Source: Terriglobia bacterium (GTDB lineage: Bacteria; Acidobacteriota; Terriglobia; Bryobacterales; Bryobacteraceae). From it: DNA of 64,000 nt. A program made the translations under genes and the position numbers. Location of the stretch: the NCBI GenBank assembly GCA_963758445.1, contig CAVWVR010000005.1, forward strand, positions 21,414 to 85,413. The letters are read 5' to 3'. Every line of letters begins with the position of its first letter. Position 1 is the first letter of the stretch. Shown in pieces: positions 3,569 to 31,413 of the stretch. The notes under the pieces were generated by a model. That model was not told the origin of the DNA. It did no database searches and saw only the letters and a program-made list of their open reading frames with translations.

Positions 3569-4660
3569 ATGGGCACTCGGGTAATTGCACGTCCCGATCC
3601 GGAAGAGCTGCTGAGGCGGGTCGAATCCGAGGAGCGGGAAGAAAAACGCGGAAGGCTGAAGGTCTTCCTGGGCTACGCGCCGCGCGTTGGCAAATCCCGG
3701 CGCATGCTGGATGAGGGTTGCCGCCGCAAAAAGCGCGGGCAGGATGTCGTCATAGGCGCGCTCCAGAGGAAAGAGAGTGCGGGCACCGGGTGTTATGTGG
3801 GCTCGCTGGAAATGATCCCGCTTCGACCAGTCGATGGCGGAGTGGCGATGGACACCGATGCCATCATTCGGCGTCACCCGACAATTTGCCTGATCGACGA
3901 ACTCGCGTTCGACAATCCGCCGGGCGCGGAGCGTGAGCATCGCTGGCAGGATGTGGAGCATCTGCTGAACAACGGCATCAATGTTGCAACGGCGGTCAAT
4001 CTCCAGCACATTTCCGAACAGCAGAACTGCGTGGAAGCGATTACGTCCAGGAGAGCGCAAAATTCGGTGCCCGAAAAGTTCGTTCGGGACGCGGATGAAA
4101 TCGAGATCGTCGATGTGCCCGCGCAGGACTTGTGTACTGGTCTAGAAAGCGACGAACAACGGGCGCTAAACAGCCGGCAACTATCTGAACTGCGTGAGTT
4201 GGCGCTGCTCCTGGTGGCGGACGTGATTGAGGCGCAACTGTTGCGCTATCTGGACGGGCATGGCGTCCAACATTCCTGGGGAGCTCAGGAGCGAATCCTG
4301 CTTTGCATCGAAACGCAGCCCAAAGCCAAAGCTCTGGTGGAGAGCGGCAAGCGCAACGCAACCCGTTCGCACGGGCAACTGTTCGCGCTCCATGTGGAGG
4401 ACAAAGAACTCAACCGTGAAGCTCGCGAACAGGTTCAGGAGAACCTGGAATTGGCGCGGCGGTTGGGCGCGGAGATTCACGAGGTGAGCAACCCGGACCC
4501 GATCGGCGCAATTATCGATTTCGCCCGCACTAACCGAATAACTCAGATTTTTGTCGGTCATCCGCGGGGGAATAGATGGCTGCACTGGGGAGAACGGCGG
4601 ATCGACCGCCTGATTCGTGAAGCTGAAGGGATGGATGTCCGAATCTTTCCCCAGTCCTGA
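3569..4660 (+). CDS. KdpD N-terminal sensor domain + universal-stress-protein (Usp) domain protein; no histidine-kinase domain
   Basis: The RGRLKVFLGYAPRVGKSRRMLDEG motif is a degenerate KdpD N-domain P-loop. The C-terminal half is Usp-like. No HisKA/HATPase_c motifs (H-box, N/G1/G2 boxes) are present. Confidence 0.8.
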   Translation: MGTRVIARPDPEELLRRVESEEREEKRGRLKVFLGYAPRVGKSRRMLDEGCRRKKRGQDVVIGALQRKESAGTGCYVGSLEMIPLRPVDGGVAMDTDAIIRRHPTICLIDELAFDNPPGAEREHRWQDVEHLLNNGINVATAVNLQHISEQQNCVEAITSRRAQNSVPEKFVRDADEIEIVDVPAQDLCTGLESDEQRALNSRQLSELRELALLLVADVIEAQLLRYLDGHGVQHSWGAQERILLCIETQPKAKALVESGKRNATRSHGQLFALHVEDKELNREAREQVQENLELARRLGAEIHEVSNPDPIGAIIDFARTNRITQIFVGHPRGNRWLHWGERRIDRLIREAEGMDVRIFPQS

Positions 4661-5732
4661 AAGCACAGAGCATAAACGCGGCAAGTTGCGCATCTTTCTG
4701 GGCTACGCCGCGGGTGTGGGAAAAACCTACAAGATGCTCGAAGAGGCGCAGCGGCTGAAGGCAGAGGGTATCGATGTCGTGATTGGCTACTTCGAGCCGC
4801 ATGCGCGCAAGGACACGATTGCGAAGACGCAGGGGCTTGAGACCGTTCCGCGCAAAGCTATTTCATACCGACGCTCGACCTTTGAAGAGATGGACACGGA
4901 CGCAGTCCTTCGGCGCAAGCCTGCGGTCTGCGTTGTCGATGAGTTCGCACACACAAACGTCCCGGGATCGGAGCGCGCCAAGCGGTACGAGGATGTCCAC
5001 GTGCTCCTGGATGCCGGTATTGATGTGCTCACTACGCTGAACGTGCAGCACCTGGAAAGTTTGAACGACCAGGTCTGGCAAGTAACCGGTATTCGCGTTC
5101 GCGAGACCATTCCAGACTGGGTGGTGGAAAAGGCGGACGAAATCGTGATGGTTGACGTGCCGCCGCGAGCGCTCATTCATCGGCTGGAGCGCGGTGTCGT
5201 CTACGGGCACGATAAAGCGCAGCGAGCGCTAGAAAACTTCTTCACCGAGACGAATCTGACGGCCTTGCGCGAACTGGCTCTGCGACAGACGGCGCATCAA
5301 CTGGAAGGCAATATCGACCGCTTGAAGGAGAAGCCTTCGTCGCAGCGGGAACCGAAAAACTCGTCAGAACGCGTGATGATTCAGCTCAACGCCGTGCCGC
5401 AGGCCGCAATGCTGCTTCGGCGCGGAAAACGGCTGGCGGATTATCTTGAAACCGATTGCATCGCCGTCTATGTTGCACGCGACGAACGCTGGTCCGATCT
5501 TTCGCCTGAGCAGCGCGATGTTCTGGAAAAGCAGATGAACTTTGCGAGGAACATGAGGATCGGAGTGGAAACGCTGGTCGGCAAAGACATAGCGGAAACA
5601 CTGACGGACTTCGCACGCCAGCAGCAGGTAACGCAGCTTATCATCCTCCGCGGCATGCCCGATACGCATCGCATTGTGAATAAAGCGCACAATATGGTGG
5701 TTACGGTGATTTCGGAGCGCAAACGGGCTTAG
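4617..5732 (+). CDS. Second KdpD N-terminal/Usp domain paralog (sensor-only, no kinase)
   Basis: RGKLRIFLGYAAGVGKTYKMLEEA is a canonical KdpD N-domain P-loop, and the C-terminal region is Usp-like. It overlaps the end of the preceding paralog. The true start may be the internal ATG near 4635. Confidence 0.8.
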   Translation: MKLKGWMSESFPSPESTEHKRGKLRIFLGYAAGVGKTYKMLEEAQRLKAEGIDVVIGYFEPHARKDTIAKTQGLETVPRKAISYRRSTFEEMDTDAVLRRKPAVCVVDEFAHTNVPGSERAKRYEDVHVLLDAGIDVLTTLNVQHLESLNDQVWQVTGIRVRETIPDWVVEKADEIVMVDVPPRALIHRLERGVVYGHDKAQRALENFFTETNLTALRELALRQTAHQLEGNIDRLKEKPSSQREPKNSSERVMIQLNAVPQAAMLLRRGKRLADYLETDCIAVYVARDERWSDLSPEQRDVLEKQMNFARNMRIGVETLVGKDIAETLTDFARQQQVTQLIILRGMPDTHRIVNKAHNMVVTVISERKRA

Positions 5733-5885: not shown

Positions 5886-6497
5886 TTGTTAGTCGGTTGG
5901 GTACTCGGCTTTCCAAGTGCACTCCTACTTGATTGGCTCCGCCGCCTCCTGCGTAGACGTGAGCTGAAGAGAGTCATCAGAACGGAAATGGTTGAGCTGC
6001 AGTACATGATGGCGATGAACGCCTATCTGATGCGCAGCGATGCAGGGCCGCTAACGAATGCCTTTCTCGACTGGATCTGCCCTATTGCCCGAAACTATCA
6101 CGGCCCGGCAGCATCGCCCGAGCTGGCCGACTTCATCGTTCAACTTCGAAACCTATCTGAACAGGAGCGAGAAGCCGTTTTCAAAGCACGTTACAAGGCT
6201 AATCGAGGCTTGTATCCGAAGCAGCAGTGTTTGCCGTTTGTAACAGCCCACTTCGGAGAGCTTTCGGTTTTTCCTTTACAATTCCAAGCGGCCATACTGC
6301 GCGTGAAAGGGCAGCTCGAATTATTCAATCAACACGTTGCTTTTGTACAAAAACGGCACGACATGACGTTTACCGTTACGAAGGAACAGTACGAACGCGT
6401 TGCAAACGACTTCCGCGACGGAATCGCCCAACTCGCCTACATGGCGGAGCAAATCGCAACCGCAATTTCGGATCAAGCCATTTTGAAAGGCAGGTGA
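5886..6497 (+). CDS. Hypothetical protein with an N-terminal TM helix, in a low-GC pocket
   Basis: 203-aa ORF with a TTG start and no recognisable motifs. Local GC is about 40-48% versus about 60% in the flanks. Confidence 0.35.
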   Translation: MLVGWVLGFPSALLLDWLRRLLRRRELKRVIRTEMVELQYMMAMNAYLMRSDAGPLTNAFLDWICPIARNYHGPAASPELADFIVQLRNLSEQEREAVFKARYKANRGLYPKQQCLPFVTAHFGELSVFPLQFQAAILRVKGQLELFNQHVAFVQKRHDMTFTVTKEQYERVANDFRDGIAQLAYMAEQIATAISDQAILKGR

Positions 6498-6663
6498 ACT
6501 GACGATAGTACAGGTAATCCCGCTAGAGCAGGAATGTCGTACACACCTCAAATGCCGTTTGAACAAGTAAGGCCGAGTCGAGCCCCGCCAAGTCCGGGGC
6601 GGCTCAGGGGAAGGGATGCCATTGAGGCTGACGTTTGAAAACGCGCGAGCACCGAAATTGATT

Positions 6664-6694
6664 GATATAACAGCTTTCTCATAGAGTCGGCAAC
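6664..6694. promoter_or_regulatory. Motif copy A, GATATAACAGCTTTCT-N9-GGCAAC, 28 bp upstream of the MFS transporter start
   Basis: An exact 16-mer plus GGCAAC at identical spacing is repeated at 9053-9083. Confidence 0.5.
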
Positions 6695-6721
6695 CTGTCC
6701 TATTAGGTTCCATCCAACTTT

Positions 6722-7921
6722 GTGAAGGAGCTTTGGATGGCAACTGCCGAACTCACACTACAAGATGCTCAGACGACAACTTCGAACGCCGCCTGGTGGG
6801 CGGTGGTCTCGCGATTCTTTCTGCACGGCCTAATCGTGTCCACGTGGGTATCGCGGATTCCCACCATTCAAAGTGCGCTAGGGTTGACGAACGCCACTCT
6901 CGGACTCAGTCTGCTGGGAACGGCTGTCGGGTCGGTGGTCGCAATTCCCGCGACGGGTTGGCTGGTGGGGCGCATCGGCAGCAAGCGTGTCGCTGGCCTA
7001 AGCACGGTTGGCTTCGCGCTCGCTTTGGTTGCTCCGGCTTTTGCCTACAACGGACTTACTCTTTTCCTGTCTCTGATTCTCTTCGGGGCAATGGCGGGAG
7101 CCAACGACGTTTCCATCAATGCGCAAGGAGTTGCGCTCGAACAGGCACTGGATACTCCCGTGATGTCGCGTTTTCACGCGATGTTCAGCATCGGGGGAAT
7201 GATGGGCGCGGCCGCAGGTGGGTTGATTGCCTTGCGCGAGGTTTCCCCACGGCCTCACTTCCTGGTACTGTCGGTCGTATTCGTGCTGGCCGGCATTCTT
7301 ACCGCGCCCTATCTGTTCGAAGCGCACGATCACAAAACAGAGCAGACGCATTCGATGCGATTGCGCCACATTCCTTTGGTGCTGGTGGTGCTTGCTGTCA
7401 TCGGCACGTGCATGTTTCTCTCAGAGGGCGCGATGGCGGATTGGTCAGGCGTCTACTTGAAGCAGGCTCTGCATGCCGACCACGCGCTTGCGGCTTCCGC
7501 CTACGCTGTTTTCTCATCCGGCATGGCGTTGTTCCGGCTTCTCGGCGACGGCATTACGAAGCGCCTTGGGCCGGTGCGCACGGTTCGCGCAGGCGCGTTG
7601 ATCGCTGCTACCGGCCTGACACTCGCGCTAACGTCCCACTCCGCAATGGCAGCTCTCCCGGGATTTGCACTCACGGGCGCAGGATTCTCCGTTATTGTTC
7701 CGCTGGTGTTCGCGGCCGGCGGTAGAGTCAAACAGATTCCCAGCGGGTTCGGCATCGCCATGGTGAGCGGTTCCGGTTACTTCGGCTTCTTATTCGGGCC
7801 GCCGCTCATCGGTCTGCTTGCGCAGGCAACATCGTTGCGCCTGACTTTGTTCCTGGTGGTTGCGCTCACGCTGGTAGCGGCGACGTTGGCGAATGCAGTG
7901 CGCCCGGCGGATGCGCAGTAA
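6722..7921 (+). CDS. MFS transporter
   Basis: 399 aa with about 12 predicted TM helices and a glycine-rich MFS-type composition. Confidence 0.8.
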   Translation: MKELWMATAELTLQDAQTTTSNAAWWAVVSRFFLHGLIVSTWVSRIPTIQSALGLTNATLGLSLLGTAVGSVVAIPATGWLVGRIGSKRVAGLSTVGFALALVAPAFAYNGLTLFLSLILFGAMAGANDVSINAQGVALEQALDTPVMSRFHAMFSIGGMMGAAAGGLIALREVSPRPHFLVLSVVFVLAGILTAPYLFEAHDHKTEQTHSMRLRHIPLVLVVLAVIGTCMFLSEGAMADWSGVYLKQALHADHALAASAYAVFSSGMALFRLLGDGITKRLGPVRTVRAGALIAATGLTLALTSHSAMAALPGFALTGAGFSVIVPLVFAAGGRVKQIPSGFGIAMVSGSGYFGFLFGPPLIGLLAQATSLRLTLFLVVALTLVAATLANAVRPADAQ

Positions 7922-7927
7922 TCACGT

Positions 7928-9043
7928 CTAGGCGGCGTCAATTTCGGCGCCGCACGATTTACGGACGATCAACTCGCCGTCAAGCAAGACCTCTCGCGGC
8001 GGCAGATGAGGGCTACGGATGCGGTCCAGCATGGTGCGTAAGGCGGCTTCGCCAATCTCGCGAGTCGGCTGGCGAATCGTGGTCAGCGGCACGGGCAAAA
8101 GACTTGCGTACGACACATCGTCTATGCCGACAATCCGGATATCCTCCGGAATCTTCATCTTCCTCGCGAGAAAGACCTGCATGAGCTGGCCGGCCACGCG
8201 GTCGTTCACGCAAACGAAGGCATCTATCGCGTCGCGCTTGCCTTTGCCGCCAGACAGCTTGGGATTCTCCTGGTCCGCTTGCGCCGCCTCGACCATGGGC
8301 CGCAAACCATGGACGACCAGCGCTTCTTTGTATCCGGAAAGCCGATCCTCAATGCTGGATGCGATGCCGTGATGACCGAGAAAACCAATGCGCCTGCACC
8401 CCAGATTGATCAGGTGCTCTGTCGCGACATAAGCGGCCTGTCGATTGTTCAATCCAACCAGGTCCGGACGATTGCGTTCCGGAGTTTTCGAAGCGCGCCG
8501 GTCAAGCAGCACAACTGGAATTTTGGCCTCCCGAAGAGCGGAGAGAATGCGCGCGTTCACCTTCGTTGCCTCGCGTTCATATTCCAAGGGCGCGAAGAAG
8601 ACGCCGGACACTTGTTTGGATATGAACTGTTGGCACAGGCTCCAGGCCTGCTGCGGCTTAGTCGTCTGGGTTCCGGCATTTCCCCACAGCAGCGCGTGCT
8701 CAGGGGCTTCGGGAGCGCGCGCGATGCCCTGACATATCGGCTCGAATATCTCTGTTTCGCCGAGATCGGGTATTAACAATCCGAACAGATGCGGCCGGGG
8801 CTGGTGCTGAAGATCGCGAACATAGGTGCCGGATCCGGCGACGCGGTCCACCAACTGCAGGTTCTGAAGCTCGCGAATGGCACGCCCGACGGTGATGCGC
8901 GAAGCACCGGATTTGTTGACCAGCGCGGCCTCGCTTGGGAGTTTCTGACCCGGCTTATAGCGCTCCGCAAGAATATCGGCTTTGAGTGATTCAAACAGTT
9001 CCTGATACTTCGGAATAGGCCGCTCTGAACGCGTACTACGCAT
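7928..9043 (-). CDS. Transcriptional regulator with a GntR-type N-terminal HTH and a LacI/periplasmic-binding-protein-like C-terminal sugar-binding domain
   Basis: N-terminal YQELFESLKADILAERYKPGQKLPSEAALVNKSGASRITVGRAIRELQ is a GntR HTH. The remainder is a PBP-like fold typical of LacI-family ligand domains. Confidence 0.8.
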   Translation of the reverse strand: MRSTRSERPIPKYQELFESLKADILAERYKPGQKLPSEAALVNKSGASRITVGRAIRELQNLQLVDRVAGSGTYVRDLQHQPRPHLFGLLIPDLGETEIFEPICQGIARAPEAPEHALLWGNAGTQTTKPQQAWSLCQQFISKQVSGVFFAPLEYEREATKVNARILSALREAKIPVVLLDRRASKTPERNRPDLVGLNNRQAAYVATEHLINLGCRRIGFLGHHGIASSIEDRLSGYKEALVVHGLRPMVEAAQADQENPKLSGGKGKRDAIDAFVCVNDRVAGQLMQVFLARKMKIPEDIRIVGIDDVSYASLLPVPLTTIRQPTREIGEAALRTMLDRIRSPHLPPREVLLDGELIVRKSCGAEIDAA

Positions 9044-9052
9044 GCGGAATCA

Positions 9053-9083
9053 GATATAACAGCTTTCTAGCCGCTACGGCAAC
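9053..9083. promoter_or_regulatory. Motif copy B, GATATAACAGCTTTCT-N9-GGCAAC, 10-40 bp upstream of the GntR-type regulator start and about 160 bp upstream of the HAD gene
   Basis: Same 16-mer and GGCAAC spacing as at 6664-6694, on the same strand. Confidence 0.5.
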
Positions 9084-9241
9084 TGAGGCAGTGCATTTCC
9101 ATCTAAAATGTAGGAGAGGACGTTGCACCTCGTAAACGATCCTTCCTTCCCTGTTCGCTAGGAAGCGCGCCGGAGACTGTTTAGCCCGGCGACTCACTGC
9201 CAGCGTTTCTCTTTTCAATTTTTAAAAAAAGGAGTATCTTT

Positions 9242-10054
9242 ATGACCCCCTCAGGGAAACAATATCTATTCGTTAGCGATTTCGACCAGACGTTGAGCTT
9301 CAACGATTCCGGCCTGGTTCTAAGTAAGATGATCGGCGTTGACGGCTTTGAAGAGCGTGTGAAAGGTCTGGCCAACCTCCACCTTGTGCAACAGGGCGGC
9401 GAACTCGCCTACTTGCTGCTGCACGACCCGCAATTCCGCTGCGTTCGCAGGGACCAGCTTGCAGCCGTGGGTAAACAGATTCGTCTCAAAGAGAATATCG
9501 ATCTACTCTCTGACGCGCTCAAAGATCTGAACGGCAATGAGTTCAAGTTCCACGTGGTTTCGGCGGCACCGGAAGAAGTTGTGAAGTCGGCGCTCGAAGG
9601 CATTGTTCCGGCCGATCACATTCACGGCACGCGCTTCCGCTATAACGATGCGGGTGAAATCGAAAGCATCGTTCGGCTACCGGCCGGGTACGGCAAGGTT
9701 GCGGTGGTGGATGAACTTAGAACGCAGATGAAAATCGGACATGACAGCGTTGTCTACGTCGGCGACGGCAGTTCGGACGTTCACGTCATGCTGCACGTGA
9801 ATCGCCTGGATGGCTTAACCATCGCGGTCTCGGAGAATAAGTACCTGACTCCGATCGCGAAACGGACCATTCTCAGTGAGGATGCGTCCAGCGTTCTAGT
9901 GCCCATGCTGGAAGATCTGTTTGGCTGGACTGCTGCGCAGATTCGCACTTTTTTCCAGGCACGAGGCTTGACGCTTCAGGAATGGGATAAGGTTCGCACC
10001 GATACGATTACATTGGGCCGCACGGCCACACCGGTGGCGGCGGCGATTAACTAA
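9242..10054 (+). CDS. HAD-superfamily hydrolase (HAD-IB/phosphoserine-phosphatase-like)
   Basis: N-terminal FVSDFDQTL is HAD motif I (DxD). YVGDGSSDV is motif IV. An AGGAG ribosome-binding site precedes the ATG. Confidence 0.7.
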
Positions 10055-10061
10055 GTGAAAG

Positions 10062-10988
10062 CTACTGCCGCCTCCGCGCAGCGGTAGCAGACGGGAATAG
10101 GGTCCTATCCGCCAGCGCGACTTGCGCCTTTCGCGCCTGTTCTGACCCGGGGTACTTCTGAATCAGCGCGCGCAGTTCCTGTACGGCCTGCGTGCGCTGC
10201 CCGCTCTTGGCCAGGGCCACGCCTTTCATGTAAGCCGCATCTTTGGTTCGAGGATTCTGGGGATAGCGCTCCAACACCGCATCAAACGCGTGAACAGCTC
10301 CCTTGTAATCGGTTTGGTTATACGCGATCTCACCCAGATAGAACTGGGCGCTGGCGGCATATTCGGTATTCGGAAAATAAGTCAGATACTGCTGATATTC
10401 CTGCACGGCTAACGGAACATTCCCGGTCTGTTGATCGCGTCGGGCATCGGTGAACAATTGGGCTGCACTTACGCCCGCGGGCGGAGCGCTTGCCCCGGGT
10501 TGGCCGGTTCCAGGTGACGAACTCAGGCCCGGAGCGCCCATCGCGCTAGGAGGGCCTGTCTGGGAGCCAGGAGCCGCCGGTGGATTCTGCATGATCTGGA
10601 TCTGATTCTTCACGTCAGTAATTTTGGCGTCCATGCGCTCCAGTCGCGCGCCCAAATCGGCTAGCGCATCACGCAAGGAGCGTACATCCTCACTGGTCGC
10701 GTCAACCTTAGTGCCCAGATTAGTCACCGGTCCAAGTGAACTGACGACTGTGTTCCGCAGCACGTCTTGCATGCCCGCAACCTGGTCCGCGGTGTGGCGC
10801 GTGTCGGCCGCCATCTGGCCCAATGCACCATTCAGCACATCGATCTTCGACTTCAAATCGTCCTGCTGCTTCTGCAGAGTGTCGAATCGATCTTCCAGTG
10901 CACGCTGTAAAGCCAGCAGATCCTTGTTTACCGCAAAAGAGAAGCCGGAAAAAGTCAATGCCAGAACGGCCAGACGCAGAAATTTCAT
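10062..10988 (-). CDS. ybgF: Tol-Pal system protein YbgF/CpoB (coiled-coil + TPR)
   Basis: Signal peptide, an N-terminal coiled coil and C-terminal TPR repeats (YQQYLTYFPNTEYAASAQFYLGEIAY...). It is the last gene of the tol-pal cluster. Confidence 0.75.
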   Translation of the reverse strand: MKFLRLAVLALTFSGFSFAVNKDLLALQRALEDRFDTLQKQQDDLKSKIDVLNGALGQMAADTRHTADQVAGMQDVLRNTVVSSLGPVTNLGTKVDATSEDVRSLRDALADLGARLERMDAKITDVKNQIQIMQNPPAAPGSQTGPPSAMGAPGLSSSPGTGQPGASAPPAGVSAAQLFTDARRDQQTGNVPLAVQEYQQYLTYFPNTEYAASAQFYLGEIAYNQTDYKGAVHAFDAVLERYPQNPRTKDAAYMKGVALAKSGQRTQAVQELRALIQKYPGSEQARKAQVALADRTLFPSATAARRRQ

Positions 10989-11089
10989 TGAGTTAACTCC
11001 TCATGAGAGAGGGACGGATGAGAGCCGTCCCTGTTTCACGCTTGTCTTCAGTGTAAGTGAAGCAGCGGATATTTCTCCGTACGCAGGCG

Positions 11090-11857
11090 CTACTGGCCAG
11101 CCGAGAAATGGTCTCGCCGATTACGCGCGTAGCAATCCTCGCTAGCGTCCGTGCAGATGGGACGTTCTTTGCCGTAGCTGATGGTCTTCAGCTTGTCGGC
11201 GGGAACTCCCATGCCAACCAGCGCTTCCTTGGCTGCCGATGCGCGTCGATCTCCCAGCGCCAAATTGTATTCAGCCGACCCGCGCTCGTCGCAATTGCCT
11301 TCAATCTGAACAATGAAGTTCGGGTCCATGGAGAAGATCTGCTTCAGCGCGGTCGCATCCTGCTGAAGAATGGGCTGATCTTCGGCGCGGACATCGCTCT
11401 TGTCGTAATCGAAATGAATATCCTGCACCTGCTGTTGCAAGATCTGCACGGCAGTTAATTGGTTGGTCGGCGCTGCCACGGGGGCGGGCGGAGGAGCCGT
11501 GCTGACAGTAATGGTCGCTTCCGCATCTGCTGTGCCGCCCGGGCCAGTTGCGCTCAGATGATAGGTGGTTGTCTGAGTTGGATAAACGGCTCTACGGCCA
11601 TTCGGGCTGACTGGGCCGATCCCTTCGATCGAAACGTTCGTTGCGTCGGTAACGCTCCAACGCAGAGAGGATGGCTGGCCTGCATTGACCGTCGTCGGCT
11701 CCGCGGTGAAGTAATTGATAGCCGGCTTATTGGCCACAGTCGTCGGCGTGGGCGCCGGCGGTGGAGGTGGTGGCGGTGGCACTTTCTTGTGACATCCAGC
11801 CGCGAAAACCAACAGGAGCGTTGACAAAGCAATCGGCAAAGCTCTGCGTTGTGCCAT
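11090..11857 (-). CDS. pal: Peptidoglycan-associated lipoprotein Pal (OmpA-family)
   Basis: Lipobox LVFAAGC, a proline-rich linker and a C-terminal OmpA-like domain (NFIVQIEGNCDERGSAEYNLALGDRRA). The chosen start is an internal ATG at 11857 that gives the lipoprotein signal peptide. Confidence 0.85.
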   Translation of the reverse strand: MAQRRALPIALSTLLLVFAAGCHKKVPPPPPPPPAPTPTTVANKPAINYFTAEPTTVNAGQPSSLRWSVTDATNVSIEGIGPVSPNGRRAVYPTQTTTYHLSATGPGGTADAEATITVSTAPPPAPVAAPTNQLTAVQILQQQVQDIHFDYDKSDVRAEDQPILQQDATALKQIFSMDPNFIVQIEGNCDERGSAEYNLALGDRRASAAKEALVGMGVPADKLKTISYGKERPICTDASEDCYARNRRDHFSAGQ

Positions 11858-11903
11858 GGTAATGAGTCGATCCTCTACTTTCATTTGACTTCTAGCTACT
11901 TTA

Positions 11904-13286
11904 CTACTGCTCCGCATTAACCCAGACCGGTTTCTCGTTGCTACCGCTCTGCGTGAGCGGATGCTTGCCCGTTCCGTCCGCATTCATGACCCAGATCTGC
12001 GACTGCCGGCCGCGCTTGGAGGCATAGACAATATGCGCTCCATCCGGGGCAAAACCGGGATTTTCATTTCTTCCCTCGTTAGACGTCAATTGGGTCACTT
12101 GCTGATTTCCCACATCCATCACGAAGATGTTGTAATTGCCCGGTTCGAATCCCTTGGTCCAGGCGAACGCGATATGGTCGCCATCGGGACTCCACGCTGG
12201 ATTCGTCGCCTCGCCCGTTCCCGCGGAGATCCGTTGCACGTCCGTTCCTTCGACGCTCATATGATAGATCTGCGGCAATCCGCTGCGCCCGGAGACATCC
12301 ACCAAGTCAGTCCCGGTTTTCGGATTGATCTTCGGTTCCACCTCAATCACACCTGAGGCGGTCAAGCGCCGCAATCCGCTGCCATCTGCGTTGGCCGTAA
12401 AGAGCTGCGCATTTCCCCCCGCCGCGGTGGACGAGAAGACGACGCGTTTAGAATCCGGCGTGAACGTGACAAACGCATTCATAGACGCCCGTTGATTGTA
12501 AAACGGCAGCTTGCGCCCGCTATCGAGTGAGAACATCTGAATCGCCGGAAAGCCCACTGCCCAGGTGGTGAACGCAACAATGCGACCGTCGGGCGAGGCA
12601 GAGGGAAACGTCGAAATCGAATGATAATTGGTCAATTGCCGCTGAGCGGTGCCGTCCCAGTTCATCACCCAGATCTCTTTGGAACCGGAACGGTCGGATA
12701 CAAAGACGATCCTGGTTCCCACTAAGCTCTTGCCGCCGAACTGCGCCAATATATCAGCCGCATAGCGGTGCCCGGCATCGATAGCGCCTTCGCGCGTCAT
12801 GGGCGCAGTGTAGATCTTCCCGAATACTTGCGCCTGCTGTAGCGTGGCGATTGAAGTGGACGTGCTGTAGAACCAGCCGAAGGCGACAAACATGCCTCGA
12901 TCCTCGGCGCCGTAGCCGATGCCCAAGTAATTGGCCGAGACGGGCGGGAGACTCCAGTCCGTCAGGCGATTTGCCATCATTGTCACCGCGCCTCGGCTAG
13001 GCGGAGCAACCCCGGCAATCAAATCCGAAGGCTGCTGCGGAACTTGCAACGGGTAAAACGTCTTCGGAATAAAGTTGATCAAAGGCGAGCCTTCCAGATC
13101 GCTTCTGACAGTCTGATTGAAGTCGCCGATATATGCCGTCGCCGCCCCAGAGGCGCGGAAATCAGTCACCGCAATATGCGGCTTGCCGGGATTCTTTTCA
13201 ATGGTCCCCTGAACCTGTTGCCCGAGTAGCCAGCCCAGGCCGCTAACGGCGAGAAGTGCAATTGCAAGTATGAATGTGCGCATCAC
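11904..13286 (-). CDS. tolB: Tol-Pal system beta-propeller protein TolB
   Basis: 460 aa with a signal peptide, a TolB N-domain and C-terminal beta-propeller repeats (SPDG motifs). Confidence 0.9.
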   Translation of the reverse strand: MMRTFILAIALLAVSGLGWLLGQQVQGTIEKNPGKPHIAVTDFRASGAATAYIGDFNQTVRSDLEGSPLINFIPKTFYPLQVPQQPSDLIAGVAPPSRGAVTMMANRLTDWSLPPVSANYLGIGYGAEDRGMFVAFGWFYSTSTSIATLQQAQVFGKIYTAPMTREGAIDAGHRYAADILAQFGGKSLVGTRIVFVSDRSGSKEIWVMNWDGTAQRQLTNYHSISTFPSASPDGRIVAFTTWAVGFPAIQMFSLDSGRKLPFYNQRASMNAFVTFTPDSKRVVFSSTAAGGNAQLFTANADGSGLRRLTASGVIEVEPKINPKTGTDLVDVSGRSGLPQIYHMSVEGTDVQRISAGTGEATNPAWSPDGDHIAFAWTKGFEPGNYNIFVMDVGNQQVTQLTSNEGRNENPGFAPDGAHIVYASKRGRQSQIWVMNADGTGKHPLTQSGSNEKPVWVNAEQ

Positions 13287-29418: not shown

Positions 29419-31413
29419 ATGTTCAGATCGTGCCTTACGTTCAGCCTCGTTTTAGGCCTTGCCTTCACGGGCGCGTACGCGCAGCAGCGCCCGGCACCCG
29501 ACCCCAAGCTAGTGGAAAAGCGCAATTCCATCGAGAAGGAACTCGAAGACGTCGCCATCATCGATCGCAAGGTGATGGTTCCTATGCGCGACGGCAAGCG
29601 CATGGCCGCTGATATCTATCGCCCGAAGGACACCTCGAAGAAGTACCCCATCATCTTCGTTCGCACGCCCTACAACTTCAACTTCTGGGACGTGCGGCTC
29701 GGCGCGCCGCGTGACATGAGCGCTGAACTCGATGCGGTCAAACGCGGCTATGCCTACGTCGAAATGAATGAGCGCGGTCACTTCTTCTCCGAAGGCAATT
29801 ACGACATCCTCGGCGCTCCGCTCTCTGACGGCGATGACGAATTCACCTGGATGTCGACGCAGCCCTGGTCGAACGGCAAGGTTGGCGCCATTGGCTGTTC
29901 CTCCACCGCCGAATGGCAGCTCGGCGTCGCAGCGCTCGGCAATCCCGCATTTGCGGCCATGATTCCGCAGGGATTCGGTGCCGGTGTCGGCCGCGTGCAT
30001 CCCTATTTCGAACAAGGTAACTGGTATCGCGGCGGCGCCGTGCAGATGCTCTTCATCGATTGGCTCTACGGCGAGCAGAACACCTTCCGGCCCACGTTTT
30101 CGCGCGACACAACGCAAGACGAACTCATTCGTGTCTCTAAATCGTTTGACCTTGCTCAGCAGCTTCCGCCAGTGGATTGGTCCAAAGCGTTCTGGCATTT
30201 GCCTGAAATGGACCTCATCAAGGCGGTCGATGGTCCGCACGGGATTTTCGCGGATTACGAGCCGGTCCCCACCGGCGGCGCCATGATCAAGCGCACGCCC
30301 AACGATCCGGCCTGGTACAAAGGCGGCCTCTGGCATGACGACAAGACCATCAATGTCCCCGGCTTCTGGTTCATGTCCTGGTATGACGTTTCAGTCGGCC
30401 CCAATCTGGCAGCCTACAATTTCGTGCGTAAGACTGCCAAGCCCGATATTGCCGATCATCAATACGCCGTCATTGCTCCCACGCTCCACTGCAGCTACAA
30501 GCGCGCAACGGAGAACACCAAAGTCGGAGATCGTGTAATGGGCGACGCCCGTCTTGACTATGATGCGCTGACTTACGGCTGGTTCGATCATTTCCTGAAA
30601 GGCGAAGATAACAGCATTCTCGAAAAAATGCCGCGCGTTCGTTACTTCACCATGGGTCTGAATAAGTGGCAAGCTGCGGACACTTGGCCGCCGGAAGGCG
30701 CGGAACCGATGACGATGTTTCTCACCAGCGCCGGGAAAGCAAATACTCTGCATGGCGACGGAACGCTAAATAGCGCGCCGGCATCAAACGACGCGCCGGA
30801 CAATTTCACTTACGATCCAATGAAGCCCGTCCCATCCTACGGCGGCAACGTTTGCTGTGAAGGGAATGCGCTCACAGGCGGTTCGTTCGATCAGCGCAAA
30901 GGGGAAGAGCGCGAAGACATCCTTGTCTATACGTCTGTACCGTTCAAGCAGGATACCGAAGCGAGCGGGCCCATTGACGTGACCCTGTATGTCTCTTCAG
31001 ACGCCAAGGACACCGATTTCACCGTTAAGGTGATCGACGTCTACCCCGACGGGACTGCTTATAACCTCGACGAAACCATCCAGCGGCTCCGCTACCGCGA
31101 TGGTTACGACAAGCCGCTCGTCTGGATGGAGCCCGCTAAAGTCTACAAAGTCGCTTTCCAGCCGATGACGACCAGCAATTACTTCGCCGCCGGGCACCGG
31201 CTTCGAATTGAGGTTTCCAGTAGTAACTTCCCGCGTTTTGACCGTAACTTGAACACCGGCGGCAATAACTATGACGAAGTAACTGGCGTTGTCGCTCACA
31301 ACTCTGTGCATCACTCGCAGCAATATCCGTCACAGATCACGCTAACAGTCGTAAAACACTCGCCCGAAACGAAATCAGCCAAGAGCTTCGGACTCATGTC
31401 CTCCACGAAATAA
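29419..31413 (+). CDS. CocE/NonD-family alpha/beta hydrolase (Xaa-Pro dipeptidyl-peptidase S15-like)
   Basis: Signal peptide. The N-terminal half is an alpha/beta-hydrolase and the C-terminal half a beta-sandwich. Typical CocE/NonD length and sequence ([19 protein letters not shown]...). Confidence 0.8.

What the first reader, a model, noticed from the sequence alone, without database searches (positions are those of the whole stretch)
6664..9083. Identical 31-bp motif GATATAACAGCTTTCT-N9-GGCAAC upstream of both the MFS transporter and its divergently placed GntR/LacI-type regulator
An exact 16-mer followed 9 nt later by GGCAAC occurs at 6664-6694, 28 bp before the MFS start, and at 9053-9083, 10-40 bp before the regulator start codon on the opposite strand. 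It is AT-rich in a ~60% GC genome. The two copies flank exactly the transporter-regulator pair. In copy A the motif sits between TTGATT and TAGAGT hexamers spaced like a sigma-70 -35/-10. Most likely it is the operator of the GntR-type regulator (autoregulation plus transporter control), or a shared promoter core.
Basis: seen in the sequence. Interest (0 to 1): 0.5.

Follow-up and report, generated by a model that had tools for sequence, protein, structure and literature searches.

The report
Operator sites of an AraR-like repressor
The repeated 16-mer is the well-conserved half of a palindromic DNA site where the neighbouring sugar-sensor-type repressor most likely binds to switch off its own gene, a transporter gene and probably a phosphatase gene; this is an ordinary local gene switch, though one conserved across many soil Acidobacteriota.

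Summary
GATATAACAGCTTTCT-N9-GGCAAC occurs exactly twice in the 64 kb window, at 6664 and 9053, both on the + strand. The gene layout was misread. The MFS gene (6737-7921, +) and the regulator (7928-9043, -) are convergent. Copy B lies between the regulator and a divergent HAD-IB phosphatase gene (9242-10054, +).

The regulator has a GntR winged helix joined to a LacI-type sugar-binding domain, the AraR architecture. Orthologous loci were six Acidobacteriota genomes and 80 metagenome contigs, with regulators 43-73% identical. In 71 distinct loci a matching site lies 8-16 nt upstream of the regulator's ATG. Their consensus is an 18-bp dyad, AAnCTGATA|TAACAGCTT. 73 of 75 strong matches in 493 kb lie upstream of the regulator, phosphatase or transporter genes.

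Upstream of the MFS gene, GGCAAC begins a weaker second inverted box; the dyad centres are 33 bp apart in 9 of 9 loci.

The most likely function is autorepression plus transporter repression by an AraR-like local repressor. Binding has not been tested. This is a new member of a known kind, of low to moderate interest.

The parts
6659..6676 (.). Box O1 of copy A. It is an 18-bp imperfect dyad, TGATTGATA|TAACAGCTT, centred at 6667|6668. The right half is strong and the left half degenerate.
   Evidence: PWM score 29.7 bits. The dyad centre was defined. Orthologous sites lie upstream of the MFS gene in 9 loci.
6689..6709 (.). Box O2 of copy A, a weaker inverted box. On the - strand it reads aacctAATAGGACAGGTTGCC. 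Its dyad centre at 6700|6701 is 33 bp from the O1 centre.
   Evidence: It scores 8.2 bits, in the top 0.025% of background scores. An inverted box sits at the same 25-nt start-to-start offset in 9 of 9 MFS-upstream sites.
6690..6717 (+). Candidate + strand promoter for the MFS gene: GCAACCT, 16 nt, TCCAA. It resembles the ECF sigma-E pattern GGAACTT-N16-TCAAA. This is inferred only.
   Evidence: G[CA]AAC followed 16-17 nt later by CATC[CAG]AA is conserved in 9 of 9 MFS-upstream sites. The sigma-E consensus is from PMC1312014. The pattern is not rare in the window: 6 matches against about 2 expected.
6737..7921 (+). MFS transporter gene (394 aa), the presumed target of the repressor.
   Evidence: Pfam MFS_1, E=1.1e-28. 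It is linked to the regulator and phosphatase genes in two different gene orders across loci.
7928..9043 (-). Regulator gene (371 aa). It encodes a GntR winged helix-turn-helix joined to a LacI/GalR-type periplasmic-binding-protein domain, the AraR-subfamily architecture.
   Evidence: Pfam GntR 1.4e-16 and Peripla_BP_3 1.1e-33. PDB matches: AraR C-terminal domain 3tb6 at 1.1e-13, AraR N-terminal domain 4egy at 2.4e-7, NagR/YvoA at 4.8e-9.
9048..9065 (.). Box O1 of copy B. It is an 18-bp dyad, AATCAGATA|TAACAGCTT, centred at 9056|9057, 13.5 nt from the A of the regulator's ATG.
   Evidence: It scores 34.1 bits, the best in the window. The exact 16-mer is kept at this position in five other Acidobacteriota genomes. 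Matching sites occur in 71 distinct loci.
9053..9083 (-). Inferred sigma-70-type promoter of the regulator, read on the - strand: -35 TTGCCG (9082-9077), 18-nt spacer, -10 TATATC (9058-9053). The ATG follows 9 nt later with no Shine-Dalgarno sequence, so the mRNA would be leaderless or nearly so.
   Evidence: The dyad centre is 8.5-16.5 nt from the start codon in most loci. The distances from GTTGC to the site and from the site to the ATG compensate for each other (r=-0.59), and the TTGC-to-ATG distance is 35-36 nt in most loci.
9079..9106 (+). Candidate + strand promoter for the phosphatase gene: GCAACTG, 16 nt, TCTAA. It has the same layout as in copy A. This is inferred only.
   Evidence: GCAAC followed by (CA)TCTAA at N16-18 is conserved in the window's clade.
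9242..10054 (+). HAD-IB family phosphatase gene (270 aa), divergent from the regulator. It is the most constant partner of the regulator across loci.
   Evidence: Pfam HAD 1.2e-11 and NCBIfam TIGR01488 at 55.7 bits against a cutoff of 45. It is adjacent to the regulator in most of the 86 related loci.

Best explanation
The 16-mer is the centre and strong half of an 18-bp palindromic operator with family consensus AAnCTGATA|TAACAGCTT, that is CTG-N6-CAG. The adjacent regulator, a dimeric repressor with the AraR architecture (GntR wHTH plus LacI-type sugar-binding domain), most likely binds it.

At its own gene (copy B), the box overlaps the -10 and start site of a leaderless sigma-70-type promoter. 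A bound repressor would therefore shut off its own synthesis.

At the MFS gene (copy A), the same box is paired with a weaker inverted box that starts with GGCAAC. The two dyad centres are 33 bp, about three helical turns, apart. Two dimers could bind cooperatively over the transporter promoter.

An unknown sugar or sugar phosphate bound by the C-terminal domain would release the repressor. The divergent HAD phosphatase gene shares the copy-B region and probably belongs to the same small regulon.

Copy A probably arose when the MFS gene moved out of the phosphatase operon and took a copy of that control region with it.

Shown: the sequence facts, the domain architecture, the conservation, the position, the dyad symmetry and the locus specificity. 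Inferred: binding by this protein, repression rather than activation, promoter positions, leaderless translation, cooperativity and the effector.
For: 1. Architecture. The regulator has GntR and Peripla_BP_3/LacI domains. It matches solved AraR domains (3tb6, 4egy) and NagR.

2. Phylogenetic footprint.
- The exact 16-mer was recovered in six Acidobacteriota genomes, always at this locus. It lies beside the regulator's start in four, in the regulator-phosphatase spacer but inverted in one, and upstream of MFS in one. Regulator identity is only 43-72%.
- In 37 aligned sites, positions 1-5 and 8-14 of the 16-mer are almost invariant, while the flanks carry almost no information.

3. Retrieval by protein, not by motif. 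80 metagenome loci were fetched with a regulator alignment. Together with the genome loci and the window they give 71 distinct regulator-proximal sites, with mirror pairs kept at +-1 (70/71), +-4 (70/71), +-5 (56/71), +-8 (58/71) and +-9 (44/71). Positions -4 and -1 were not used to select the sites, yet they mirror T12 and A9.

4. Specificity. 73 of 75 hits of at least 20 bits in 493 kb lie upstream of the regulator, phosphatase or MFS genes. The window holds only the two strong sites.

5. Position. The dyad centre is 8.5-16.5 nt from the regulator's ATG in most loci, with no room for an SD sequence. The compensating distances keep TTGC-to-ATG at about 36 nt. About 13% of genes were predicted to be leaderless in Acidobacteria (PMC3160421).

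6. Two boxes at the transporter, one at the regulator. B. subtilis AraR shows the same pattern (PMC1950556). AraR core motifs are also 6 bp apart (PMC3592433). Extra half-sites 7-12 nt from GntR palindromes are a known pattern (PMC4494728).

7. The recognition helix SRITVGRAxREL is almost invariant across all loci, which fits the invariant TG/CA core.

8. The MFS gene is linked to the regulator in two different gene orders: convergent with it, or downstream of the phosphatase gene.
Against: - No binding, expression or transcription-start data exist for any member.
- In the window's clade the left half-site is degenerate: AATCAGATA and TGATTGATA against AAGCTGTTA. The site there is strongly asymmetric.
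- Part of the conservation of GATAT could come from the -10 element rather than from the repressor.
- Box O2 of the window's copy A is weak, at 8.2 bits.
- Where RNA polymerase starts at the MFS and phosphatase genes is unknown. Repression of these two genes is therefore inferred from geometry only.
- In the window's clade the phosphatase promoter region has no second box, and box O1 lies about 185 nt from the phosphatase ATG. Its control by this site is the least certain part.
- The loci are phylogenetically related, so counts of loci overstate the number of independent observations.
Confidence: 0.8

Rival explanations
1. The conserved block is only promoter sequence recognised by RNA polymerase, with no repressor site. 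On the - strand it would be the regulator's -35 and -10. On the + strand it would be an ECF-type -35/-10 for the MFS and phosphatase genes, with the AT-rich 16-mer acting as an UP-like element.
For: - GTTGCC, 18 nt, TATATC, then ATG fits a leaderless sigma-70 promoter. The distances compensate across clades.
- G[CA]AAC-N16-(CA)TCnAA is conserved after both copies and in 9 of 9 MFS-upstream sites. It resembles sigma-E GGAACTT-N16-TCAAA, which has A/T-rich upstream sequences (PMC1312014).
Against: - Promoter spacers and UP elements are not normally kept base for base. Here CAGCTTT, in the spacer of the - strand promoter, is invariant in 31-37 of 37 sites.
- The site has dyad symmetry that extends into positions with no promoter role.
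- It occurs in either orientation in some loci (L056, L171, L175, L122).
- At MFS genes it is repeated as an inverted pair at a fixed offset.
- In 493 kb it is essentially restricted to this regulator's neighbourhood.
Confidence: 0.07
2. The site is bound by a different transcription factor, global or encoded elsewhere, and its position next to this regulator is incidental.
For: No direct evidence links this protein to this DNA. The motif is more asymmetric in the window's clade than is usual for a dimeric repressor.
Against: - The site travels with the regulator gene across 71 distinct loci, down to 43-50% protein identity and through several gene orders.
- It abuts the regulator's start codon.
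- It has the CTG-N6-CAG / GT-N-AC style expected of GntR and AraR DNA-binding domains.
- There are no other strong sites in the 64 kb window.
Confidence: 0.08
3. The two direct copies are the ends of an inserted two-gene cassette (MFS plus regulator). They would be a target-site duplication, attachment sites or a dispersed repeat, with no regulatory role.
For: The copies are direct repeats on the same strand and flank exactly the MFS-regulator pair.
Against: - Copy B is present at the regulator's start in loci where the MFS gene lies elsewhere or is absent.
- Copy A in orthologues has diverged at non-motif positions yet keeps the motif, the fixed-offset second box and the downstream CATCnAA.
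- Similarity ends within about 70 bp, and the spacers differ.
- No mobile-element genes are present.
- The 16-mer is not dispersed.
Confidence: 0.02
4. The motif acts at the RNA level, as a shared 5' leader element of the MFS and phosphatase mRNAs. Both copies have the same orientation as those genes.
For: - Both copies are on the coding strand of the downstream MFS and phosphatase genes.
- The phosphatase leader has further conserved blocks.
- The copy A leader 6695-6740 folds somewhat better than shuffles, z=-2.0.
Against: - Rfam gave no match at E<=1.
- RNAalifold found no consensus structure in the phosphatase leader.
- The motif is palindromic and occurs in both orientations.
- At the regulator it lies upstream of or at the start codon on the opposite strand, where it cannot be part of a sense leader.
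Confidence: 0.03

Closest known systems
Bacillus subtilis AraR and its ara boxes (AraR subfamily of the GntR family)
   Same: - The chimeric architecture is the same: GntR wHTH plus GalR/LacI-type effector domain (PMC1950556).
- The operator is palindromic, with two short core motifs 6 bp apart: TTG-N6-CAA in ATTTGTACGTACAAAT against CTG-N6-CAG here.
- There is a single box at the regulator's own promoter and paired boxes at the transporter promoter.
- The N-terminal P-K-Y arm is conserved.
   Different: - It is not an AraR orthologue. NCBIfam hits are far below every equivalog cutoff.
- No arabinose genes are present. The targets are a HAD-IB phosphatase and an MFS transporter, and the effector is unknown.
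- The operator is 18 bp with an AT-rich TATA centre, and the flanks are AA..CTG rather than ATTTGT.
- The operator overlaps a leaderless promoter.
- The phylum is Acidobacteriota, not Firmicutes.
NagR/YvoA and DasR dre sites (HutC subfamily of GntR)
   Same: NagR is the closest solved DNA-binding domain by sequence (4u0y, E=4.8e-9). It is a palindromic local sugar-catabolism repressor whose operators fit the family's GT-N-AC signature, NyGTNxACNy (PMC4494728).
   Different: The effector domain is a UTRA fold in HutC proteins and LacI-type here. From my own knowledge, the dre consensus has a GT-C-TA-G-AC core, whereas this site has G(A/T)-TA|TA-(A/T)C.
Extra half-site boxes beside GntR-family palindromes (Suvorova et al. 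2015, PMC4494728)
   Same: That study found a weaker additional box 7-12 nt from the main palindrome in many FadR, HutC and YtrA regulons. Here G[CA]AAC(C/T)TG lies 9-10 nt from the 16-mer.
   Different: That study did not cover the AraR subfamily, and Acidobacteria are not mentioned in its text. Here the extra box extends to a recognisable full inverted site at MFS promoters. At the regulator's own promoter it doubles as the -35.
E. coli sigma-E (ECF) promoters, GGAACTT-N16-TCAAA
   Same: GCAACCT-N16-TCCAA (copy A) and GCAACTG-N16-TCTAA (copy B) have the AAC and TCnAA cores at the preferred spacing, with an A/T-rich stretch upstream.
   Different: This is a pattern resemblance only. No ECF sigma factor is linked to the locus in the window. 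The pattern occurs 6 times in the window against about 2 expected. GCAAC is also accounted for by box O2 in copy A and by the - strand -35 in copy B.

Membership tests
AraR subfamily of GntR-family regulators (the protein) | N-terminal GntR-type winged helix-turn-helix | tested here: met
   Pfam PF00392, E=1.4e-16, residues 12-75. AraR N-terminal domain 4egy at E=2.4e-7 and NagR at 4.8e-9.
AraR subfamily of GntR-family regulators (the protein) | C-terminal GalR/LacI-type periplasmic-binding-protein effector domain | tested here: met
   PF13377 at 1.1e-33 and PF00532 at 9.2e-11. LacI-family structures match, and the AraR C-terminal domain 3tb6 matches at 1.1e-13.
AraR subfamily of GntR-family regulators (the protein) | Orthology with AraR itself: arabinose effector and ara regulon | tested here: not met
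   No NCBIfam equivalog is reached; the best hit is RbsR at 121.6 bits against a cutoff of 382. The neighbours are a HAD phosphatase and an MFS transporter, with no arabinose genes. It shares the architecture of the subfamily but is not AraR.
GntR/AraR-type operator (the DNA) | Palindromic site with two core recognition motifs about 6 bp apart, located at the regulator's own gene and at linked target genes | tested here: met
   The dyad centre stands out, with 223 complementary cells against 75-144 at other centres. The 71-site consensus is AAnCTGATA|TaACAGCTTT. 73 of 75 strong hits are at regulator, phosphatase or MFS upstream regions.
GntR/AraR-type operator (the DNA) | Paired, helically phased boxes at strongly controlled promoters and a single box at the regulator gene | tested here: met
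   An inverted second box sits at a fixed 25-nt offset, with centres 33 bp apart, in 9 of 9 MFS-upstream sites. It is absent from 11 of 12 regulator-proximal sites of the same clade. Cooperativity itself is untested.
GntR/AraR-type operator (the DNA) | Specific binding by the cognate protein and release by an effector | not testable with these tools
   This needs EMSA or footprinting and ligand assays.
Leaderless sigma-70-type promoter (regulator gene) | -35 TTGnnn and a -10 about 17-18 nt apart, with the start codon about 7 nt after the -10 and no Shine-Dalgarno sequence | tested here: inconclusive
   The window has TTGCCG, 18 nt, TATATC, 9 nt, ATG. The -10 lacks the usual final T. TTGC-to-ATG is 35-36 nt in most loci and 38-40 nt in the window's clade. 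There is no SD in the 4-10 nt gap. No transcription-start data exist.
ECF sigma-E-type promoter (+ strand, MFS and phosphatase) | GGAACTT-like -35 and TCAAA-like -10, 16 nt apart, dependent on an ECF sigma factor | tested here: inconclusive
   The pattern is present and conserved, but it is not rare by chance: 6 in the window against a mean of 2 in shuffles. Sigma dependence is not testable here.
Dispersed repeat or mobile-element end | Many copies at unrelated loci, with similarity extending as a unit or target-site duplications | tested here: not met
   The window holds two copies only. All six Acidobacteriota hits in the genome collection are at the orthologous locus. The spacers and flanks of the two copies differ.
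Known cis-regulatory RNA (Rfam) | Match to a curated covariance model | tested here: not met
   No match at E<=1 in 6300-9500 on either strand.

The most novel reading that the evidence does not exclude
The 31-bp block could be a two-way control module. Read on one strand, it is a leaderless sigma-70 promoter with an embedded operator for the regulator. Read on the other strand, the same GCAAC is the -35 of an ECF-sigma-type promoter (GCAAC-N18-TCnAA) that drives the phosphatase gene and, after duplication, the MFS gene. A sugar-sensing repressor would then gate an envelope-stress-type promoter. On this reading, the regulator-phosphatase-MFS trio, conserved from Terriglobia to Vicinamibacteria, would be an undescribed module for handling a sugar phosphate or an exported metabolite, with a new effector.
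Probability: 0.1. Interest if true: 0.5.

Novelty: new member of a known kind. Interest (0 to 1): 0.3.

Why it matters
Little is known about transcriptional control in Acidobacteriota, which are abundant in soil and hard to culture. This analysis yields a concrete, testable operator consensus, AAnCTGATA|TAACAGCTT. It also defines a three-gene unit of regulator, HAD-IB phosphatase and MFS transporter that is conserved across many soil metagenomes. It gives a likely example of a leaderless, autoregulated promoter in this phylum. The AraR-type design, previously described in Firmicutes, would extend to another phylum with different targets. None of this changes how such repressors are thought to work. 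The value is in annotation and as a ready-made inducible promoter-operator pair, once the effector is found.

Tried and rejected
- An exact look-up of the regulator protein in public assemblies found nothing, so the source genome could not be scanned beyond the window.
About 280 chance matches are expected in 596 Gb under uniform base composition, by my own arithmetic. The total count is therefore uninformative. Only the placement of the Acidobacteriota hits is.
Neither hexamer is conserved in any of the eight other MFS-upstream regions. The consensus scan found no sigma-70-like site there.
- A sigma-54 reading of GGCAAC is rejected by inspection. In copy B the next GC dinucleotide is 3 nt too far from the GG, and copy A has none at the right distance (sequence).
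- I looked for dyad symmetry inside the 16-mer alone and found none. The symmetry appears only when 5 nt to the left are included.
- I looked for co-variation between the regulator's recognition helix and the variable operator positions. The helix is almost invariant, so there is nothing to correlate.
- Rfam found nothing. RNAalifold on 12 phosphatase leaders found no consensus structure.
- The GC-rich hairpin upstream of copy A (6573-6608) folds no better than shuffles, z=-0.98.
- The functions of the phosphatase and MFS genes could not be narrowed. The phosphatase has no PDB relative at E<=0.01, and the MFS has only weak EmrB matches.
Full report
**Observation.** The exact 16-mer GATATAACAGCTTTCT lies at 6664-6679 and 9053-9068, both on the + strand. 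Each copy is followed after 9 nt by GGCAAC. Allowing 3 mismatches adds only one match in the 64 kb window, at 30605, inside a long ORF. Shuffles give a mean of 0.19 matches, and none of 100 reaches three. The 16-mer is 31% GC in a window of 56.7% GC. An alignment of the two regions shows that the similarity continues: TTCCATC-N-AA follows GGCAAC after exactly 13 nt in both copies, while the spacers differ.

**Genes.**
- 6737-7921 (+) encodes an MFS transporter.
- 7928-9043 (-) encodes a 371-aa protein with an N-terminal GntR winged helix and a C-terminal LacI-type periplasmic-binding-protein domain.
- 9242-10054 (+) encodes a HAD-IB family phosphatase.

Copy B lies in the 198-bp divergent spacer between the regulator and the phosphatase gene, 9 nt from the regulator's ATG. 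A GntR head on a LacI-type body is the architecture of the AraR subfamily (PMC1950556, PMC4494728). The protein matches the solved AraR C-terminal domain (3tb6, 1.1e-13) and N-terminal domain (4egy, 2.4e-7). Its closest solved DNA-binding domain is NagR/YvoA at 4.8e-9. It reaches no NCBIfam equivalog cutoff, so it is not AraR itself.

**Is the 16-mer dispersed?** I scanned one genome for each of 185,579 species for the exact 16-mer. That number is in the range expected by chance for 596 Gb, by my own arithmetic, and most hits are in unrelated phyla and contexts. Six hits are in Acidobacteriota MAGs: three Terriglobia, two Acidobacteriaceae and one Vicinamibacteria. All six lie at the orthologous locus.
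- In L003, L010, L020 and L081 the hit is between the regulator and the phosphatase gene, beside the regulator's start.
- In L056 it is in the same spacer but inverted and close to the phosphatase gene.
- In L103 it is upstream of the MFS gene.

Regulator identity to the window in these loci is only 43-72%. Each locus that contains the MFS gene also has a diverged copy, with 2-3 mismatches, at the other position.

**Unbiased retrieval.** An alignment of five regulator orthologues was used to fetch 80 metagenome loci by protein similarity, 50-73% identical.
- The regulator and the phosphatase gene are divergent neighbours in most loci.
- The MFS gene is convergent with the regulator in the close clade (identity of 57% or more). 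In L145, L159, L171 and L175 it lies directly downstream of the phosphatase gene.
- 37 distinct loci have GATATnnCAGCTTT, at up to 3 mismatches to the 16-mer, within a few nucleotides of the regulator's start. Positions 1-5 and 8-14 are almost invariant and the flanks carry almost no information.
- A 21-nt weight matrix built from these sites finds only the two copies as strong hits in the window, at 34.1 and 29.7 bits.
- Across 87 sequences (493 kb), 73 of 75 hits of at least 20 bits lie upstream of the regulator, phosphatase or MFS genes.

**What the site is.** Dyad symmetry peaks sharply at a centre between positions 4 and 5 of the 16-mer. Positions -4 (A in 31 of 37) and -1 (T in 24 of 37) played no part in selecting the sites, yet they mirror T12 and A9. 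Many loci score on both strands at an 8-nt offset, so they carry full palindromes. Examples are AAAGCTGATATAACAGCTTT in L171 and AAGCTGTTATAACAGGTT in L122. Seventy-one distinct regulator-proximal sites give the consensus AAnCTGATA|TaACAGCTTT, with mirror pairs kept at +-1, +-4, +-5, +-8 and +-9. In the window's clade the left half is degenerate: AATCAGATA at copy B and TGATTGATA at copy A. The core CTG-N6-CAG has the same spacing as the TTG-N6-CAA of the AraR consensus ATTTGTACGTACAAAT and of the ORA1 co-crystal. The recognition helix SRITVGRAxREL is almost invariant in all loci, which matches the invariant core.

**Copy B and GGCAAC.** The dyad centre lies 8.5-16.5 nt from the A of the regulator's start codon in most loci. 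This leaves 4-10 nt with no Shine-Dalgarno sequence. On the - strand the window reads TTGCCG, 18 nt, TATATC, 9 nt, ATG. Across clades, the distance from the 16-mer to GCAAC (7-12 nt) and the distance from the 16-mer to the ATG (4-10 nt) compensate for each other (r=-0.59). As a result, TTGC-to-ATG is 35-36 nt in most loci and 38-40 nt in the window's clade. This is the geometry of a sigma-70-type promoter that produces a leaderless, or nearly leaderless, mRNA. A published survey predicted about 13% leaderless genes in Acidobacteria (PMC3160421). The operator thus overlaps the -10 and the start site of the regulator's own promoter, which implies autorepression. The promoter assignment is inferred. 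The -10 lacks the usual final T and no transcription-start data exist.

**Copy A and GGCAAC.** In all nine MFS-upstream sites the best inverted match to the matrix lies at the same start-to-start offset of 25 nt, which puts the dyad centres 33 bp apart. Seven of the nine are in the top 0.05% of background scores. The regulator-proximal sites of the same clade lack such a box in 11 of 12 cases. In copy A, GGCAAC is the inner end of this second box (6689-6709; 8.2 bits in the window, up to 14.6 bits in L003). Two boxes at the transporter promoter and one at the regulator's promoter is the arrangement described for AraR, where paired in-phase boxes bind cooperatively and repress strongly. Extra boxes 7-12 nt from GntR palindromes are also a reported pattern.

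**The + strand promoters.** Downstream of GCAAC, CATC[CAGT]AA is conserved at 16-18 nt in both kinds of site. In several loci the MFS start codon follows within 1-19 nt. GCAACCT-N16-TCCAA and GCAACTG-N16-TCTAA resemble the E. coli sigma-E pattern GGAACTT-N16-TCAAA. Copy A shares this block with copy B. This suggests that the MFS gene acquired a copy of the phosphatase-side control region when it left the phosphatase operon. The pattern is not rare, at 6 matches in the window against about 2 expected, so I treat the ECF reading as a lead and not a finding. Box O2 covers the promoter whether the MFS promoter uses O2 as a -10 or uses GCAAC/TCCAA, so repression is the expected outcome under both readings. 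Control of the phosphatase gene in the window's clade is the weakest inference, because there is no second box and O1 is about 185 nt from its ATG.

**Rivals.**
- A promoter-only reading does not explain the invariant spacer bases, the dyad symmetry, the sites in reversed orientation, or the fixed-offset inverted pair.
- A different transcription factor is unlikely, because the site follows this regulator through several gene orders down to 43-50% identity.
- A cassette-end or dispersed-repeat reading fails, because copy B exists where the MFS gene is elsewhere, and because the repeat is not dispersed.
- An RNA-level element has no support.

**Verdict.** The element is the operator of an AraR-type local repressor, fused to that repressor's leaderless promoter, and it is duplicated at a relocated transporter gene. 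It is a new member of a known kind and of modest interest.

Noticed in passing
window 6711-6717 and 9100-9106: CATC[CT]AA lies 16 nt after GCAAC in both copies. It is conserved as CATC[CAGT]AA in all nine MFS-upstream sites and in the window's clade of regulator-phosphatase spacers. Together with GCAAC it resembles an ECF sigma-E-type promoter, GGAACTT-N16-TCAAA. The operator model does not explain it.
   Followed up: partly
window 9140-9170 (phosphatase 5' leader): A conserved pyrimidine block CCTTCC(T)TCC is followed by GGAAGC, for example CCTTCCTCCTCGGTCGCCGGAAGC in L003. It is complementary to the purine-rich Shine-Dalgarno region of the phosphatase gene, so it could act as an anti-SD hairpin. 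The L103, L010 and L130 group has CCCTGTTCATCAGGATG at this position instead. RNAalifold found no consensus structure on a poor 12-sequence alignment, and Rfam found nothing.
   Followed up: partly
window 9123-9161: A 12-codon mini-ORF (TTG CAC CTC ... CGC TAG) lies behind a good Shine-Dalgarno sequence (AGGAGAGG, 9113-9120), just downstream of copy B. The GGACGTT block around its start is conserved, but the ORF itself is not (TTA in L003).
   Followed up: partly
L056:1641-1656 (Vicinamibacteria MAG): The exact 16-mer is present but inverted relative to the genes. It lies about 35-45 nt from the phosphatase start and about 150 nt from the regulator start, and there is no GCAAC after it. The same site seems to serve the other gene of the divergent pair in this class.
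   Followed up: partly
L152:3656-3779 (also L156, near its high-coordinate end): Paired sites of 20.4, 17.1 and 15.5 bits lie away from the regulator, upstream of a cupin-type glucose-6-phosphate isomerase gene (Pfam GPI, 8e-35). This hints that the regulon concerns a hexose phosphate.
   Followed up: partly
L140:1736-1751 and L144 (flipped coordinates 4615-4630): In these loci the strongest site (25.8 and 26.6 bits) lies about 330 nt from the regulator, upstream of a roughly 100-aa membrane protein (weak Imp-YgjV match). An ECF sigma factor gene follows. No phosphatase or MFS gene was detected nearby.
   Followed up: partly
window 9738-9753 and L010 (flipped coordinates 7586-7601): A weak matrix hit of about 14 bits (GACATGACAGCGTTGT) lies at the same place inside the phosphatase coding sequence in two genomes. 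This is probably a coding constraint rather than a site.
   Followed up: no
L010 (Acidobacteriaceae MAG, contig_1741): The MFS, regulator and phosphatase genes all show split tblastn alignments in different frames. These are frameshifts, which suggests assembly errors or decay of the whole module.
   Followed up: no
window 4617-5732 and 10062-13286: The flanking genes are unrelated to the module. They are a KdpD-like sensor without a kinase domain (4617-5732), and a Tol-Pal cluster on the - strand made up of CpoB/YbgF, an OmpA/Pal-like protein and a TolB-like beta-propeller. The flanking genes differ between loci, so the three-gene module moves as a unit.
   Followed up: no
window 6664-6694, - strand: Copy A keeps the same -35/-10-like arrangement on the - strand (GTTGCC, 18 nt, TATATC) as the regulator's promoter, but no start codon or gene follows on that strand. 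It might fire a short divergent transcript towards 6573-6608, or it might be inert.
   Followed up: no
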